From the IMG/VR virus record IMGVR_UViG_3300021962_000002: 20,000 bases of DNA. One strand, written 5' to 3'. Every line of letters begins with the position of its first letter. The stretch's first letter is position 1. Origin of the DNA: an uncultured virus (IMG/VR IMGVR_UViG_3300021962_000002). Lineage: Duplodnaviria; Heunggongvirae; Uroviricota; Caudoviricetes. The position numbers were made by a program, and so were the translations under genes. Under the pieces are notes generated by a model. It was not told the DNA's origin. It ran no database searches and was given only the letters and a program-made list of their open reading frames with translations. Below, piece by piece: positions 1,003 to 19,964 of the stretch.

Positions 1003-1076
1003 CGCCCTGAGCAAGATTCGAACTTGCAACCACTGACTTAGAAGGTCAATGCTCTATCCAATTGAGCTATCAGGGC
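1003..1076 (-). tRNA. tRNA-Arg (anticodon TCT), CCA not encoded
   Basis: Minus strand GCCCTGATAGCTCAATTGGATAGAGCATTGACCTTCTAAGTCAGTGGTTGCAAGTTCGAATCTTGCTCAGGGCG. Acceptor stem GCCCTGA/TCAGGGC, D arm GCTC/GAGC, anticodon loop CTTCTAA, T arm GCAAG-TTCGAAT-CTTGC. Confidence 0.96.
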
Positions 1077-3409: not shown

Positions 3410-3556
3410 TTAGATTGGTTTAATGATTATCAGGTTTTGACTTACGATTATTTCTGTATTTGTTCCGCGAGGAAATCCAGCTTTTTCTAGCCATTTGCCA
3501 CGCAATCTTAGGAAAGGTGCTTTGCGCTCGTCAGTTACTTTGGATTTTCTTTTCAT
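3410..3556 (-). CDS. SymE-like (AbrB-fold) protein, 48 aa, absent from the ORF track
   Basis: Hand translation: MKRKSKVTDERKAPFLRLRGKWLEKAGFPRGTNTEIIVSQNLIIIKPI*. Matches the SymE pattern P-x-[LI]-x-L-x-G-x-WL-x-x-AGF-x-x-G and fills the gap between the terminator and ORF 3407. Confidence 0.8.
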   Translation of the reverse strand: MKRKSKVTDERKAPFLRLRGKWLEKAGFPRGTNTEIIVSQNLIIIKPI

Positions 3557-3573
3557 TTTGCCTGTTCTTGCAT

Positions 3574-5696: not shown

Positions 5697-5724
5697 TTGA
5701 CAACCTTTGCCAATTATTTATGCT
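5697..5724 (+). promoter_or_regulatory. Sigma70-type promoter for the putative terS
   Basis: TTGACA (5697-5702), 16 nt spacer, TATGCT (5719-5724). Predicted +1 near 5731, the A of the ATG. Confidence 0.6.
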
Positions 5725-5730
5725 TACGCC

Positions 5731-6213
5731 ATGGGAGATTCTATTCAGCCAATCCGTAAAGGACGGCCACCAAAGATCGCAGATCAAGTTTGGTTGGAAA
5801 TTGAAGATAGGTATGTATCAGGCGATACTTCCTTGAAAGATTTAGCTCTGGAGTTTGGATTGAACTACCAAACTGTGTTGTCGAGGAGCAAAGACAAACG
5901 ATGGTTAAGTCCACAACGAATCAGCCGTGCATTAACCCGCACCGATTTACCCCCACAGGACACAGCAAAGCAAATTGCAGACCGTTGGGCGGCGAGAAAA
6001 GAAGAAATGAGAGAGAAACTATACAAAGGCGCAAGCAAAGCCTTAGATACTTTCTGGCTCATGTCTCCCATGCCTCAGGATTTTGCGGAGGCTGAAAAAG
6101 CTATGAAGATGCTTGATAAAGCAATCAACCCAGATGAAGGAAAGACAGACAGTAGTATTAACCTCTCTATCTTAACCAACGGTTTTAATCCTTCTCCTAT
6201 TGTTGACATCTGA
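5731..6213 (+). CDS. Putative terminase small subunit (N-terminal HTH)
   Basis: GRPPKI...WLEIEDRYVSGDTSLKDLALEFGLNYQTVLSRSKDKRW, then helical segments. Same strand as terL and upstream of it. ATG at 5731. Confidence 0.65.
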   Translation: MGDSIQPIRKGRPPKIADQVWLEIEDRYVSGDTSLKDLALEFGLNYQTVLSRSKDKRWLSPQRISRALTRTDLPPQDTAKQIADRWAARKEEMREKLYKGASKALDTFWLMSPMPQDFAEAEKAMKMLDKAINPDEGKTDSSINLSILTNGFNPSPIVDI

Positions 6214-6371
6214 TTACTTTAGCCAAGTTTGGATACACCAGAAAAGAGCCTATAAAGTGCAAAGAAGCTAAATAAGCACACAAACAAGCAAAACAAGCAC
6301 TGAATTAGCGCATATGAGCCAATTTGAGAGCACTTTGACCACTTGGTAGGGTGATCACAGCGGATTGGGGG

Positions 6372-6683
6372 TAAGCCATGCTTAAATCGGCTTATAGAGA
6401 GGTATAGACGCACAGTGTTTTTGCCGTAACCCTAAGTAATTACGGATGGATGAGGCACGGTAGTACAGAATAACTGTTAGGAGAGATGTTGATATACCAA
6501 TGGATTTTATGTTTTAGCCCCGAGTAGAGCCAAAACAATCTGTATTGGTATTGATCTTTCCAGTAATCACAATGTATTCCCCTTTGCCTGTTCTCAAACC
6601 ACTAAGGCAACTAAGATTGATCTTGTTTTTGCCTGCTGTTCTTGTGTGGATAGAGAGTAGGATAGTGTTAATTAGGGTAACAC
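6372..6683. repeat. Cluster of inverted repeats in non-coding DNA
   Basis: TAAGCC/GGCTTA 6372-6394; CCGTAA/TTACGG 6424-6445; long imperfect IR 6473-6564; AGGCAA..AAGAT/ATCTT..TTGCCT 6605-6634; GTGTTA/TAACAC 6665-6683. Confidence 0.65.
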
Positions 6684-6685
6684 CC

Positions 6686-6722
6686 AAGACAACGCCCCAA
6701 TTTAGTTGGCTAAACTGAGGCG
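6686..6722 (-). terminator. Probable intrinsic terminator whose apex is the 14-bp motif (copy 2)
   Basis: Minus strand CGCCTCAGTTTAG-CCAA-CTAAATTGGGGCG (13 bp including two G-U) then TTGTCTT, just after the stop at 6736. Confidence 0.65.
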
Positions 6723-6735
6723 CTGGTATTGGAGG

Positions 6736-6918
6736 CTATAGACGAGTAACGTCTAGTGGGGGAAGAACACTATGATCTTTTAACCTTATTGGTAACTTGA
6801 CCATAAGGATCACTCTATCCCAAACCTTCTTCTTTACAGGAAGAGAAAGTAAGTATTGAGTTGCGTTCTCCACTGCGTTTGCGTGGCTATTCTGTTTGCG
6901 TTGTTTATCGTATTTCAT
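6736..6918 (-). CDS. Small hypothetical protein (60 aa) downstream of the hammerhead
   Basis: Start context ACACATATGAA is identical to that of ORF 7252. Followed by a terminator. Confidence 0.55.
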   Translation of the reverse strand: MKYDKQRKQNSHANAVENATQYLLSLPVKKKVWDRVILMVKLPIRLKDHSVLPPLDVTRL

Positions 6919-6944
6919 ATGTGTATATGTTATTGCAGTCTGAT

Positions 6945-6994
6945 GACCTCATCAGTGCGCTCATTAAGCACAGACCCCCGAAGGAGTTTCGGTC
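6945..6994 (-). ncRNA. Type II hammerhead ribozyme
   Basis: Minus strand GACC-GAA-ACUCC-UUCG-GGGGU-C^UGUGCUU-AAU-GAGCGCA-CUGAUGA-GGUC. Core CUGAUGA and GAAA, GUC cleavage triplet, stem III with a cUUCGg loop, 7-bp stem I, open stem II GACC/GGUC. Confidence 0.92.
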
Positions 6995-7003
6995 TATTCT
7001 TTC

Positions 7004-7252
7004 TTACCAGTTACGATCTATTAAACAACGCTTGATGATCTCTGCCATAGTCTCGTTAATCTCATTGATTGCATGATTGATAAAGCCAGCGCCCGAACCC
7101 ATTCCTGCTCTGACGTTGCGACAATCAGCTTCATGTCTTTCTTCAAACGGGAATGATCCCTTTGGTAACAGCGCTATCAATCCATCCTTCCTTGCTTGAA
7201 GTTGATTGATTGCTTCTGCTGCTGTGATTGGTAGTTGTAATGTAGTATTCAT
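7004..7252 (-). CDS. Small hypothetical protein (82 aa) upstream of the hammerhead
   Basis: ATG with the leader ACCAACAACACACACAT. The stop is about 10 nt before the ribozyme. Confidence 0.65.
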   Translation of the reverse strand: MNTTLQLPITAAEAINQLQARKDGLIALLPKGSFPFEERHEADCRNVRAGMGSGAGFINHAINEINETMAEIIKRCLIDRNW

Positions 7253-7407
7253 ATGTGTGTGTTGTTGGTATAGTCTGAGGGGCGGCGGGTGTCACCTGAC
7301 TCCCCTACTCCGCAGTATCGACTACACAGATGGAACAGAACGTTTGTGAAAAAATTCTCGTAAAAAAAATTCTTGAGTGAAAATAAATGATGGGTTAATT
7401 AGACGCC

Positions 7408-9135
7408 ATGGATAAGTATGGATACAATTGGCCGACTGGTGTAAATCAGTTGACGATTGAGTTATGGTGCTATGCGCATAGAAAGTGCAGTGTTGAGGAG
7501 AAGTGGGATCACTTCAAGAATGTGGTTGATTTGGCGTTTAACTGTGATGGGAGTGTAAGGAGGGTTATTTGGAATAAGTGGACGAATAAGATGATTCGTA
7601 GTGCTATTGGTGATGGGGGGAAGAAGAGGTTTTTGGGAATTGCGGGATGTTCGTCTAGTGGCAAGAGTGATGGCTTTGCCTTGTATGCATTGGTGGAGTT
7701 TTGGAGTCGGCCAGCAGACACATATGTGTTTGTTATGAGCACGACTAAGGCTGACGCTAGGAAAAGGATTTGGAGGAGTGTTACGCAGTTGTATGCACAG
7801 GCACAAAGGATGGGATGTCCTGGAAAGTTAGTGGATAGCCTTGGAGTAATTCAGGGCGTAAACAAGTTAGGGAAACTGACAAGGAACAGTGGCATTGAGC
7901 TTGTGGCAGCAGGTAAGGCTGAAGCTGGAGAAGCTAGTAGTGGATTGATTGGTATTAAGAGTCCGAATGTTGTTGTGATTGCTGATGAGATGCCAAACCT
8001 TGGAGAGGGTATTTTGGAAGCAGCGTGGGACAACCTTACGTCCAATGATCGGGTGTTCTTTGGTGGATTGGGTAACCCGAATTTATTTAGTGATCCATTT
8101 GCTGATTTGTGCGAGCCAGTTGGTGGGTGGGCTACAATTACGGAACAAGATGAGGAATGGAAAACAAAGTATGGAATGTGTATTCGCTTTAATGCTGAGT
8201 TAAGTCCACGGATTACAGAGCCTGATGGAGAGAAGTATTTTTGGCAACCAGATCAAATGTATTGCGACAGGATTGCAGACGCTAGAGGTGGTAAGAGAAG
8301 TAGAGGATACTATCGTTTCGTTAAAGCTTTCTGGTGTCCAGAAGGTGCTGGAAATACAATTTACCAAGAAAGTGAGTTCATTGTGAACAATGCAATGGAG
8401 GATCAAGAGCCTGAATGGGAGGGGACGCCGATTGTAATTACGGCGCTAGATCCTGCATTTACCCGTGGAGGTGATAGGGCTTACGCTGGTGTTGCAAAGA
8501 TTGGTAAAGTTGGTGGGCGCGATCATCTTCATATTTGTCAGTATAGGGGGTTAGTAGAGGATACTTCTGACAAGAAGAATCCATTATCTCATCAATTGGT
8601 GATACAATGGAAGGAATTGGCTACAGACTGGGGTGTTACACCATACAGAGCTACGCTAGACGGTACAGGGAGCGGTATTAGCTTTGGGCATATAGTTGAT
8701 GCGCTTTGGAGTCCTGCTGTCTCTAAAGTCAATTTTAGCTCAAAGGCTTCAGGTAGAAAAGCATTCTTCCGTGGCAAAGAAATTGAGTATTACAACAAGA
8801 ACAGCGAGTTATGGATTCAACCAAAAGAGTTTATTCGTGGTGGTCAGATTACTGGCGTGAGCAAGGAGTTGATGAAGGAACTTTGCACACGACAATACTA
8901 TTCAAAAGAAACTGCTAAGTTGCGCGTAGAAAGCAAAGATGAACATAAAAAGAATAACAATGGAGAGTCTTGTGACATTGCAGATATGTTCTTAATGTTA
9001 GTAGATAAATCCATTGCTTTAGGAATGTTTCATTCTGAAGAAGTCAAGAATGTCAGTAAGGTAACTGGCAAGAATTGGAGTAGATTAGTTAAGAAAAAGC
9101 AAATTAATGCTTGCTGTGGAAGAAAATTGAGGTAA
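7408..9135 (+). CDS. terL: Terminase large subunit
   Basis: Walker A GCSSSGKS, Walker B VVVIADE, GNP coupling motif, nuclease motifs ALDPAFTRGGD and CDIAD. Directly upstream of a portal-sized ORF. Confidence 0.9.
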   Translation: MDKYGYNWPTGVNQLTIELWCYAHRKCSVEEKWDHFKNVVDLAFNCDGSVRRVIWNKWTNKMIRSAIGDGGKKRFLGIAGCSSSGKSDGFALYALVEFWSRPADTYVFVMSTTKADARKRIWRSVTQLYAQAQRMGCPGKLVDSLGVIQGVNKLGKLTRNSGIELVAAGKAEAGEASSGLIGIKSPNVVVIADEMPNLGEGILEAAWDNLTSNDRVFFGGLGNPNLFSDPFADLCEPVGGWATITEQDEEWKTKYGMCIRFNAELSPRITEPDGEKYFWQPDQMYCDRIADARGGKRSRGYYRFVKAFWCPEGAGNTIYQESEFIVNNAMEDQEPEWEGTPIVITALDPAFTRGGDRAYAGVAKIGKVGGRDHLHICQYRGLVEDTSDKKNPLSHQLVIQWKELATDWGVTPYRATLDGTGSGISFGHIVDALWSPAVSKVNFSSKASGRKAFFRGKEIEYYNKNSELWIQPKEFIRGGQITGVSKELMKELCTRQYYSKETAKLRVESKDEHKKNNNGESCDIADMFLMLVDKSIALGMFHSEEVKNVSKVTGKNWSRLVKKKQINACCGRKLR

Positions 9136-18182: not shown

Positions 18183-18637
18183 TTAAATCAGGAACAGATT
18201 ACGCGCTTACAACAGACAGTAAAGTTTACCGTTTTGTTACTAAGCGCATTATTGCCACTCCACTGCAATTTCATCATGCTGATGTATCATTCCGTGACCT
18301 AGACGGTCGGGTATGGGCTAGCGTTGAAGATGGTGTATTATACATCGCTAAAGGATATGCATGGAATGGTTGTAGTCCTAAACGTAAAGTATTAGGTGTT
18401 TGGATTGGAACGCCAGATGAAAAAAGAAATGTCCATGCATCATTAGTTCATGATGTTCTTTTTCAGTTTTCTGGAACATGGCATTTCAAGCTTTCGTTCG
18501 ATCAAGTAAATTGCATCTTCCGATCATTGATGCGTAAGGATGGTTACCCCTTATCAAATCTTTATTACCTTGCTGTAATGAAGTTTGGGATTAACTTCTG
18601 GAAAAAGAACGAAGAGTGTTACTCAACAAAATTATGA
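18179..18637 (+). CDS. DUF1353-like protein
   Basis: GYAWNGCSP...ASLVHDVLFQ...NCIFRSLM...YYLAVMKFG resembles the DUF1353 pattern. Confidence 0.6.
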   Translation: MIKSGTDYALTTDSKVYRFVTKRIIATPLQFHHADVSFRDLDGRVWASVEDGVLYIAKGYAWNGCSPKRKVLGVWIGTPDEKRNVHASLVHDVLFQFSGTWHFKLSFDQVNCIFRSLMRKDGYPLSNLYYLAVMKFGINFWKKNEECYSTKL

Positions 18638-19173
18638 ATTACAAATGGCTCAATAACATTGGCTTGCTTCCCAGAATGGTGCAGCAAGGTCTTGCCTTGA
18701 TTGGAACACGCGAAGTAATTGGAAAGGGTAGCAATAGGACAATTCTTGAATGGCGTGACAACCTTAATCAGAATGGAGTTAAGATTTCTGGATACTCTGA
18801 TGATGATATTCCATGGTGTGGGCTATTTGTAGCTCATCTTGCCTTTAGCCGACTAAACTCTCCAACTGAAGTTCCTGAGTCTCCGTTATGGGCAAGGAAC
18901 TGGGCTTCTTATGGAACTAAGGTTAAGACAGCAATGTTGGGAGATGTCCTTGTATTTGCCCGTAATGGAGGAGGACATGTTGGTTTATATATTGCAGAAG
19001 ATGCTACTGCTTATCATGTTCTTGGTGGAAACCAATCAAATGCTGTAAGTATTGCGCGTATTGAAAAATCACGCTGTATTGCTATCTGCCGTCCAAATTA
19101 TAATAATCAACCAGAAAGCGTAAAACAATATATTGTAGCTTCATCTGGAGAACTCTCAAAGAACGAACAATGA
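18634..19173 (+). CDS. TIGR02594-family NlpC/P60-like peptidase, putative endolysin
   Basis: DDDIPWCGLFV (catalytic Cys), GDVLVF, GGGHVG (His), LGGNQ. Start reassigned to ATG 18634 (ATGA overlap). Confidence 0.85.
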   Translation: MNYKWLNNIGLLPRMVQQGLALIGTREVIGKGSNRTILEWRDNLNQNGVKISGYSDDDIPWCGLFVAHLAFSRLNSPTEVPESPLWARNWASYGTKVKTAMLGDVLVFARNGGGHVGLYIAEDATAYHVLGGNQSNAVSIARIEKSRCIAICRPNYNNQPESVKQYIVASSGELSKNEQ

Positions 19174-19964
19174 AAACACAATCTAAACTGGTATTGGTCA
19201 TTAGTGACTTGCATGTTGGCTCAACAGTCGGTCTATGGCCAAAAGACTTTGTGAGTATTGAAGGCAATCCTATTTTACAGAATCCATTTCAAGAATGGTT
19301 ATGGAAATGCTGGACCGATATGAATAAATGGGTTGCTACAGTAACCAAGGGAGAACCTTATGATATTGTTATCAATGGTGATATTGTTGATGGCATCCAT
19401 CATAAGACACTACAGGTTATGACTCCTGACCTTGGTGATCAAGTTATTGCGGTTAAACAAATCCTTGGTGAGTTAACTCCAAAAGCTGCCAACGTGCATT
19501 TAATTAAAGGAACTGAAGCTCATACATTGAATCAAGAAATCCATATTGGTAAGGCTCTTGGTGGTAGTAAGAATAAAGCTAATGGTCAACATGCTTGGGA
19601 TTACTTGGACTTGGAAGTAAATGGAACCCTTTACAACTTTGCTCACCACATTAGCGCTACGGCTAGGACATACCTTGAGGCTAGTGCTCATTCAATTATG
19701 CTTGGAAACCTCTCCCACGCCCGTTCTAGAGCCAAGAAACCAGTTCCCTCGGTTATGGTGAGAGCGCATAGACATAGACATGGTATCTGGGAAGATGGAA
19801 ACCAAATGTCGGTGATTACAGGCGCGTGGCAGGGCTTAACACGTTATGGCTACAAAGTAGTGCCAGATGCTACTCCACAACCTTCAGCGGTCATTTTTGA
19901 CGCAAGAAACCAAGACAAGGGAGAACTCCCAATTATTCACCGTAGAATCTACACAGCAGAATGA
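19170..19964 (+). CDS. Calcineurin-like metallophosphoesterase
   Basis: Motifs SDLH, GDIVDG, GTEAH, HH, AHRH. Confidence 0.8.
   Translation: MKTQSKLVLVISDLHVGSTVGLWPKDFVSIEGNPILQNPFQEWLWKCWTDMNKWVATVTKGEPYDIVINGDIVDGIHHKTLQVMTPDLGDQVIAVKQILGELTPKAANVHLIKGTEAHTLNQEIHIGKALGGSKNKANGQHAWDYLDLEVNGTLYNFAHHISATARTYLEASAHSIMLGNLSHARSRAKKPVPSVMVRAHRHRHGIWEDGNQMSVITGAWQGLTRYGYKVVPDATPQPSAVIFDARNQDKGELPIIHRRIYTAE

What the first reader, a model, noticed from the sequence alone, without database searches (positions are those of the whole stretch)
6214..7407. terS and terL split by a 1.2 kb antisense cassette (leader, ORF, ribozyme, ORF, terminator)
Seen: the plus-strand terS-like and terL genes are separated by a self-contained minus-strand unit. 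It consists of a GC-rich structured leader, an 82-aa ORF, the hammerhead, a 60-aa ORF, a terminator and a hairpin field. Both ORFs share the start context ACACATATGAA (7248-7258 and 6914-6924). Known: terS and terL are usually adjacent. Inference: either the physical genome end or packaging site lies here and these are first-injected host-takeover genes, or this is an inserted ribozyme-processed two-gene module such as an effector/antidote pair.
Basis: partly seen in the sequence, partly recalled or inferred. Interest (0 to 1): 0.7.

Follow-up and report, generated by a model that had tools for sequence, protein, structure and literature searches.

The report
Ribozyme-punctuated swappable phage gene array
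Between its two DNA-packaging genes this aquatic phage carries a short version of a fast-changing row of small genes whose message is probably cut into single-gene pieces by self-cutting RNAs; relatives swap both the genes and the kind of cutter, which points to untested candidate ribozymes and possibly to the end of the genome.

Summary
The layout is real: terS-like gene (+, 5731-6213), a 1,194-nt minus-strand unit, terL (+, 7408). The unit holds two genes under purifying selection (82 and 60 aa) and a textbook type II hammerhead (6994-6945; 0 of 300 shuffled windows). It is not a fixed effector/antidote pair. It is the shortest of 11 distinct versions (1.2-4.6 kb) of a hypervariable array in which genes and spacer modules are exchanged at start and stop codons. 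The first junction holds a ribozyme in 11 of 12 arrays, of four interchangeable kinds (hammerhead, twister P1, twister P5, pistol). Other junctions hold non-circularly permuted hammerheads and recurring unclassified folds. The 'structured leader' looks more like a DNA site: a T-tract plus a GC motif at near-fixed spacing, kept in three relatives that lack the array. A packaging site or genome end is plausible but untested (about 40%). The 'terminator' has no U-tract. Ribozyme-flanked phage genes are known (Perreault 2011), as is shuffling at spacers (T4 PeSLs), and this scan noted similar arrays on other DNA. New here: position between terminase genes, class-agnostic swapping, and a testable list of candidate ribozymes. 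No cleavage or expression was measured.

The parts
5697..5724 (+). sigma-70-like promoter of the terS-like gene (10 of 12 consensus matches)
   Evidence: consensus match only
5731..6213 (+). terS-like gene, 160 aa: N-terminal helix-turn-helix, long helices, extended C-terminus
   Evidence: PHROG terS hits E 2.6e-4 and 0.013; model pLDDT 64; homologs 180-370 nt before terL in L074, L078, L084
6214..6735 (-). conserved non-coding 3' tail of the array; the 57-codon frame inside it is probably not a gene
   Evidence: alignment; frame cut short in 1 of 7; pN/pS 0.22-1.0 on few changes
6490..6560 (-). strong hairpin in the tail
   Evidence: z -5.4; partly eroded in relatives
6583..6635 (-). two copies of an 8-nt direct repeat (CAGGCAAA) 45 nt apart; candidate protein-binding sites
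   Evidence: 44-45 nt apart in 11 of 11 complete arrays and in L132 although the sequence between differs
6684..6732 (-). end-of-array long hairpin with internal loop, no U-tract: processing or stabilising stem rather than an intrinsic terminator
   Evidence: 5 of 25 pairs with compensatory change in 6 sequences; not called as terminator
6736..6918 (-). orfB, 60 aa, basic, no family; late gene of the array
   Evidence: pN/pS 0.12-0.31 in 4 comparisons; no Pfam/PHROG hit
6945..6994 (-). type II hammerhead ribozyme; predicted cut 3' of the C at 6973 (GUC), 31 nt after the orfA stop and 54 nt before the orfB start
   Evidence: descriptor; 3 of 3 stem changes in L002 keep pairing, none compensatory on both sides; geometry
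7004..7252 (-). orfA, 82 aa, no family; first gene in 6 of 11 complete arrays
   Evidence: 12 homologs at 76-100%; pN/pS 0.04-0.37 in 5 comparisons; no family or atlas hit above 0.79
7253..7265 (-). A/C-rich, G-poor translation start context (also 6919-6930), shared in kind by most array genes
7279..7305 (-). conserved GC motif (core ACCCGCCG at 7290-7283) and invariant 20-mer; candidate packaging (pac/cos-like) site or array promoter element
   Evidence: 20-mer exact in 15 of 15 terL loci and in 25 of 25 pattern hits, all beside terL; core kept in array-less relatives
7349..7373 (.). repeated A/T tracts; last T lies 58 nt before the GC motif
   Evidence: D14; spacing 58-62 in 11, 68 in 1, 47 in 3 of 15 sequences
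7408..9135 (+). terminase large subunit, 575 aa
   Evidence: phrog_2 E 5.6e-4; relatives down to 2.6e-11

Best explanation
The interval is a hypervariable accessory-gene array, read on the minus strand as one transcript from the T-tract/GC-motif region toward the long hairpin at 6684-6732. Each junction carries a folded RNA module. Here a type II hammerhead cuts the message into an orfA piece and an orfB piece, so that each gene gets its own ends and stability. What is selected is the cut, not the chemistry: relatives put a twister, pistol or permuted hammerhead in the same slot. Genes and modules are exchanged among related phages by recombination in shared genes, shared modules and the A/C-rich start contexts, with joints surviving mainly at start and stop codons. 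Shown: anatomy, coding selection, ribozyme folds, interchange, breakpoint bias. Inferred: transcription as one unit, cleavage in vivo, early timing, the recombination route, any host-interaction role of the proteins.
For: 11 distinct complete terS-terL intervals of 1,194-4,630 nt among 16 complete of 26 examined. 55 hand-called genes in 12 arrays fall in 24 families (one gene was mis-framed there). 15 of 37 internal spacers carry a recognised ribozyme, all on the array strand: 7 twister P5, 3 pistol (all above Rfam gathering), 3 twister P1 (E 1.5e-9 to 2.6e-6, below gathering), 2 type II hammerheads; 2 more carry a permuted hammerhead. First junction has a ribozyme in 11 of 12. orfA is followed by 5 spacer types, orfB preceded by 4. 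64 of 142 homology ends lie within 12 nt of a start or stop (18.7 expected), 18 deep in genes (92 expected). A contig of run X8 replaces exactly 6919-7003 by 842 other letters. Repeated modules occur within L024, L033, L034. L132 (terL 75%) and five relatives at 53-56% have the same plan.
Against: No RNA, cleavage or ribosome data. 20 of 37 spacers hold no recognised ribozyme; L005's first junction and all junctions of L065 and L066 hold none. The active hammerhead fold (-16.0 kcal/mol) is less stable than an alternative that pairs the core (-20.3), and no clear loop I pseudoknot was found, so the window's copy could be slow or regulated. No minus-strand promoter was called upstream of orfA. 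The 142 ends are not independent, and joints at gene borders are expected for phage mosaics in general. 9 of 12 arrays have no internal repeat, so PeSL-type excision is not the general route.
Confidence: 0.78

Rival explanations
1. Add-on to the best explanation: the T-tract plus GC motif at 7279-7373 is the terminase recognition/cutting site (cos- or short-terminal-repeat-like). The linear genome would then have terL at the end packaged first and the array at the end ejected first, read inward, like the T7 early region with ribozymes in place of RNase III sites.
For: The site lies in the terS-terL gap of 14 of 14 loci tested; 6 other such sites in 299 kb. It persists in L074, L078, L084, which have no array. 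Spacings of 47, 58-62 and 68 nt differ by about one helical turn; the sequence between varies and the RNA hairpin is not kept. All window genes left of terS are on the minus strand and all from terL on are on the plus strand.
Against: Motif and distance window were defined after seeing the data. No read-end data: only contigs could be laid and they run through the site. No contig among 25 ends at the motif. The motif was not found near terL in most of 35 distant loci listed, and a terS-like gene was found in only 8 of 67. In L051, L060, L063, L064, L065 extra genes sit between the motif and terL, so it travels with the array head and could be a promoter element. Packaging class could not be read from terL.
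Confidence: 0.4
2. The GC motif region is the array's promoter/5' leader only, with T-tracts as upstream elements; no packaging role.
For: It always heads the array; a small hairpin is kept in 7 of 15 sequences including L060 with a changed loop.
Against: Kept where there is no array to drive; no sigma-70 match on the minus strand there.
Confidence: 0.35
3. orfA and orfB are a dedicated effector/antidote pair whose ratio is set by the hammerhead.
For: Adjacent in the window and L002; every orfA array has orfB or its possible remote relative.
Against: Adjacent in only 2 of 6 orfA arrays; orfB alone in 4 of 11; no toxin-antitoxin family hit; the hammerhead slot is generic.
Confidence: 0.07
4. 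Ribozyme-flanked genes are released as unit RNAs that circularise or move at the RNA level.
For: Some relatives have genes bracketed by two ribozymes (L033, L034).
Against: The window has a single ribozyme; no ligase or reverse transcriptase seen in the window; no joints without inserted letters; Perreault 2011 report finding no spliced or circular products (passage).
Confidence: 0.06
5. Assembly chimera or untranslated junk.
For: Contigs of relatives often break inside the array.
Against: Spanned in one piece in two runs; same layout in L002; pN/pS well below 1.
Confidence: 0.02

Closest known systems
Clustered hammerheads flanking single genes or gene blocks in prophages (Perreault et al. 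2011, PMC3088659; passages seen)
   Same: Type II hammerhead between small phage genes whose identity varies; proposed cutting of long transcripts into gene-length mRNAs.
   Different: Here four to six ribozyme kinds replace each other in one slot within one phage lineage, the locus is fixed between terS and terL, and population-level shuffling is resolved to start/stop codons. The window's hammerhead shows no clear loop I pseudoknot.
PeSL cassettes of T4-type hyperplastic regions (Arbiol 2010, PMC2839356, abstract and one results section; Comeau 2014, PMC4122927, abstract)
   Same: ORFan-rich variable region; intergenic modules serve as exchange points and bring their own expression signals.
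   Different: PeSLs are one repeated promoter-terminator family; these spacers are a dozen unrelated RNA modules, mostly unrepeated within a genome, with no promoter called; no mini-circles tested.
T7 early region processed by RNase III (PMC6938266, passages; end-of-genome position recalled)
   Same: Polycistronic small-gene transcript cut at structured junctions; long hairpins at some junctions.
   Different: Cutting here is predicted to be RNA-catalysed at many junctions; gene content is hypervariable; genome-end position unproven.
Type-SGC non-circularly permuted hammerheads (Eckert et al. 2023, PMC10085705; sections 13-14 and passages, supplements not seen)
   Same: Relatives L012/L124, L040, L060/L123, L132 have blocks in S-G-C order, a 3-nt linker from stem I to stem II and a fourth helix, all fully paired.
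   Different: They sit in phage DNA between genes; 3 of 4 have GAAC instead of GAAAC, and all 4 close the cut-site strand with a local hairpin, which may split block G. Not present in the window itself.

Membership tests
Type II hammerhead ribozyme | Core CUGAnGA, GAAA, UH with stems I and III closed by loops and stem II open | tested here: met
   descriptor, 15 of 15 pairs standard in both sequences
Type II hammerhead ribozyme | Pseudoknot between loop I and the 3' tail of stem II (majority of members) | tested here: inconclusive
   By eye at most 3 pairs outside stem II; only 2 variants exist
Type II hammerhead ribozyme | Self-cleavage 3' of H17 | not testable with these tools
   needs in vitro assay
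Terminase small subunit | N-terminal HTH DNA-binding domain followed by helical oligomerisation region | tested here: met
   fold search gave only HTH matches, none with E under 0.001
Terminase small subunit | Encoded just before terL | tested here: inconclusive
   adjacent in 3, 1.5-4.1 kb away in 5, undetected in 59 of 67 distant loci
Terminase small subunit | Ring oligomer that stimulates TerL | not tested
   no result
PeSL-type shuffling cassette | One conserved promoter-plus-terminator motif repeated around genes | tested here: not met
   no promoter or terminator called at the junction; 9 of 12 arrays without internal repeats
PeSL-type shuffling cassette | Gene gain, loss and replacement bounded by intergenic modules | tested here: met
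Toxin-antitoxin pair | Obligate linkage of the two genes | tested here: not met
Intrinsic terminator (6684-6732) | Hairpin followed by a U-tract | tested here: not met
cos/pac packaging site (7279-7373) | Virion DNA ends or terminase cleavage at the site | not testable with these tools
   only contigs available
Type-SGC hammerhead (relatives only) | Block order S-G-C with stems I, II and the I-II helix | tested here: met
   4 of 4 variants fully paired; 3 compensatory pairs in 3 aligned
Type-SGC hammerhead (relatives only) | Uninterrupted GAAA block pairing as stem III | tested here: inconclusive
   GAAAC in 1 of 4, GAAC in 3 of 4

The most novel reading that the evidence does not exclude
The array is the first-ejected end of the phage genome, and every junction is a cutting device, so the unclassified modules that fill 20 of 37 spacers in ribozyme-equivalent slots (several recurring pseudoknots and multi-stem folds), the stem-bulge-stem repeats of L063/L064/L132 and the GAAC permuted hammerheads include self-cleaving RNAs of undescribed class or topology. 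The lineage would be a natural plug-and-play kit of genes and interchangeable ribozyme connectors.
Probability: 0.28. Interest if true: 0.85.

Novelty: new variant of a known kind. Interest (0 to 1): 0.58.

Why it matters
Why bacterial and phage genomes cluster self-cleaving ribozymes is still open (PMC6765202, passage). This locus gives a natural experiment: the same gene junction is filled by unrelated ribozyme classes in near-identical phages, which argues that cleavage as such is selected. The slots without a known ribozyme are a short, position-defined list of candidates that can be tested in one afternoon of in vitro transcription. It also nominates a packaging site for an uncultured phage family without a cultured relative in the collection searched.

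Tried and rejected
Rfam at gathering level finds only a tRNA in the window; the hammerhead needed a descriptor. No whole genome is held. No match among 50,697 phage records for terL or the interval; a distant terL gave three weak hits. No prophage in GTDB genomes by a terL alignment, so the host is unknown; one atlas cluster labelled Verrucomicrobiota rests on one member. No RNA holder listed. The leader as HDV-like, twister or pistol ribozyme: no Rfam hit and pairing not kept; the pair counts printed were out of register and are not used. Tail ORFs of 57 and 64 codons as genes: rejected. orfA homology to the first gene of L051: no BLAST alignment, best profile hit of 5,244 ORFs but E 0.17, unresolved. 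Twister-sister identity of the L063/L064/L132 module rests on recalled resemblance; Rfam gave no hit. Structure strings were mis-indexed and replaced; alignment used a wrong stretch of L040. A wider search for the window's hammerhead found only L002. terS oligomer prediction gave no result. Paper searches returned no description of this locus or of class-swapping arrays between terminase genes; the library lacks most subscription papers, and the supplements of Eckert 2023 and Perreault 2011 were not viewed.

Full report
OBSERVATION. The window is part of a tailed phage genome. Left of 5713 the long ORFs run on the minus strand; from 7408 terL, a 771-aa portal-position gene and further structural genes run on the plus strand. 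Between a plus-strand 160-aa ORF (5731-6213) and terL lie 1,194 nt with two minus-strand ORFs, orfA (7252-7004, 82 aa) and orfB (6918-6736, 60 aa). Both are under purifying selection: pN/pS 0.04-0.37 in 5 comparisons and 0.12-0.31 in 4. Neither has a Pfam or PHROG family. The 85-nt spacer holds a type II hammerhead at 6994-6945 with every core base, a UUCG-capped stem III and a GUC cut site at 6973; the descriptor found it once in the window, in 0 of 300 shuffled windows and 0 of 5,000 shuffled intervals. The only other variant found (L002) differs at three stem positions and all three keep pairing. The isolated spacer prefers an alternative fold that pairs the core (-20.3 against -16.0 kcal/mol), so activity needs an assay. 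Two runs of different studies span the region in one contig (either may be the source of the window).

The shared 11-mer is weak alone (763 of 5,000 shuffles give some repeated 11-mer); it is one case of an A/C-rich, G-poor start context seen across array genes. The hairpin after orfB is real (z -4.7; 5 of 25 pairs compensatory in 6 sequences) but has no U-tract. The leader folds no better than chance (z -0.4).

IS IT terS? PHROG terS hits are weak (E 2.6e-4, 0.013). The model shows an HTH followed by long helices at pLDDT 64, with no fold match under E 0.001. Of 80 terL loci, 67 were scanned; 8 carry a homolog: 180-370 nt before terL in L074, L078, L084 (terL 36-37%), and 1.5-4.1 kb before it in L051, L060, L064, L065, L066 (53-56%). 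In the other 59 none was detected, many having minus-strand genes directly upstream. terS is likely; adjacency is not the rule in this family.

THE UNIT IS ONE STATE OF A VARIABLE ARRAY. terL relatives and an exact 20-mer of the leader (16 viral and 9 metagenomic hits) gave 25 loci, all next to terL. With the window, 16 of 26 are complete; after removing 5 duplicates there are 11 distinct intervals of 1,194-4,630 nt. In these and the partial L040, 55 hand-called genes form 24 families (one was mis-framed, one 46-aa call is doubtful). Of 14 cargo proteins scanned only one has a clear family, DUF4326. orfA and orfB occur together in 3 arrays (adjacent in 2), orfA without orfB in 3, orfB without orfA in 4, neither in 1. 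The arrays lacking orfB carry a possibly related gene (hhalign 8.6%), so a dependence of orfA on an orfB-like gene is not excluded, but a fixed pair is.

JUNCTIONS. Of 37 internal spacers, 15 carry a recognised ribozyme on the array strand: 7 twister P5 and 3 pistol above Rfam gathering score, 3 twister P1 below it but at E 1.5e-9 to 2.6e-6, and 2 type II hammerheads. Two more carry a permuted hammerhead. The first junction has a ribozyme in 11 of 12 arrays, and also in the partial L011 and L015 (pistol) and in L132 (twister P5). orfA is followed by hammerhead, hairpin, pseudoknot+twister P5, pseudoknot+pistol or pseudoknot+twister P1; orfB is preceded by four spacer types. The other 20 spacers are built from recurring unclassified modules. 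Homology between arrays ends within 12 nt of a start or stop in 64 of 142 cases (18.7 expected) and deep inside genes in 18 (92 expected) (ends are not independent). A contig of lake run X8 swaps exactly the window's spacer for 842 other letters. Among six relatives at 53-56% terL identity the plan is kept, but Rfam finds only one twister (L051); L060 has a permuted hammerhead, L063 and L064 an unclassified repeat, L065 and L066 nothing recognised.

THE LEADER. The core motif and the T-tract before it lie in the terS-terL gap of 14 of 14 loci scanned whole, against 6 other sites in 299 kb. Spacing is 58-62 nt in 11 sequences, 68 in one and 47 in the three array-less relatives; steps of about one helical turn suggest a DNA site, though motif and window were chosen after the fact. 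The window's small hairpin is complete in 5 of 15, nearly so in 2 more, and lost in the rest. A packaging signal would put terL at one genome end and the array, read inward, at the other, like the T7 early region (position recalled; RNase III processing in PMC6938266, passage). Against: no read-end data, contigs run through it, and in five relatives extra genes lie between the motif and terL, so it may be the array's promoter. I give packaging 0.4, promoter only 0.35. The tail has an 8-nt repeat at 44-45 nt spacing in 11 of 11 arrays and L132, another likely binding site.

MECHANISM. One minus-strand transcript (inferred) is cut at junction modules (folds shown, cleavage inferred) into single-gene messages with unstructured A/C-rich starts; upstream pseudoknots and hairpins may shield the new 3' ends (inferred). 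Because any cutter will do, ribozyme classes replace each other (shown). Co-infecting relatives exchange genes and modules through shared sequence, and products survive when joints spare genes and modules (pattern shown, route inferred). The cargo is most likely early host-interaction genes (inference from size, turnover and strand; no function shown).

COMPARISON AND NOVELTY. Perreault 2011 (passages) describe type II hammerheads and multiple hammerheads flanking varying genes in prophages, proposing gene-length mRNAs; the 2019 review (passage) says the purpose remains undefined; ribozymes are known to cluster near each other (PMC10085705 and PMC5737381, passages). Arbiol 2010 describe shuffling at PeSL spacers. 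The locus works like both, is a member of the first in kind, and fails the PeSL definition. Earlier notes of this scan report similar arrays on other DNA, one with class swapping; they gave me the Perreault paper as a lead and are not counted as support. Searches found no paper on this locus or on such arrays between terminase genes. The permuted hammerheads of relatives match the S-G-C order validated by Eckert 2023, but 3 of 4 lack one A of GAAA and all have a local hairpin at the cut site; the paper's supplements, not viewed, may already show this.

VERDICT. Real, partly reinterpreted; new variant of a known kind; interest 0.58.

Noticed in passing
L124:1558-1496, L040:765-702, L123:1560-1496, L132:1606-1544 (minus strand): Non-circularly permuted (S-G-C order) hammerhead-like RNAs in phage DNA; all stems fully paired with covariation; three have GAAC instead of GAAAC and all have a hairpin closing the cut-site strand.
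   Followed up: partly
L063:1962-2030 and 1618-1686, L064:5232-5300, L132:2098-2170 (minus strand): Conserved stem-bulge-stem module right after stop codons, 2 of 18 pairs compensatory; resembles twister-sister from recall, no Rfam hit.
   Followed up: partly
spacers of L001, L003, L006, L008, L012, L014, L033, L036, L040: At least ten recurring unclassified modules: three short H-type pseudoknots placed just after stop codons, a double-hairpin/pseudoknot module, a three-way junction, long hairpins with a conserved base.
   Followed up: partly
window 6705-6713, 6219-6227, 250, 419, 4390, 14508, 18845: A recurring TTAGCC-type palindromic motif in intergenic and array DNA of the window and relatives; possible operator.
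   Followed up: partly
window 3410-3556 (minus): 48-aa SymE-family protein (PF08845, E 3.5e-8, above cut-off), with a third copy of the tail's 8-nt repeat directly at 3557.
   Followed up: no
window 1003-1076 (minus): tRNA gene among the small minus-strand genes.
   Followed up: no
window about 2049: Contigs of runs X2 and X3 both begin at this position (record offset 2952 at window 5000); nothing special seen in the sequence, probably a graph branch.
   Followed up: partly
L063:3808-3878, L064:5876-5946, L060:7805-7876: tRNA genes with CAU anticodon directly before or after terL in mid-distance relatives.
   Followed up: no
P0024, P0029, P0032, P0037, P0042 and others; L073, L080, L111: terL relatives of 900-1000 aa with two matched stretches, suggesting inteins or insertions.
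   Followed up: no
L051:5150-5890 (minus): HNH-endonuclease-like ORF (motifs recalled) within the 5' part of the terL region.
   Followed up: no
window 18616-19173 and 19170-19964: CHAP/NlpC-like peptidase and calcineurin-like phosphoesterase, weak Pfam hits below cut-off.
   Followed up: no
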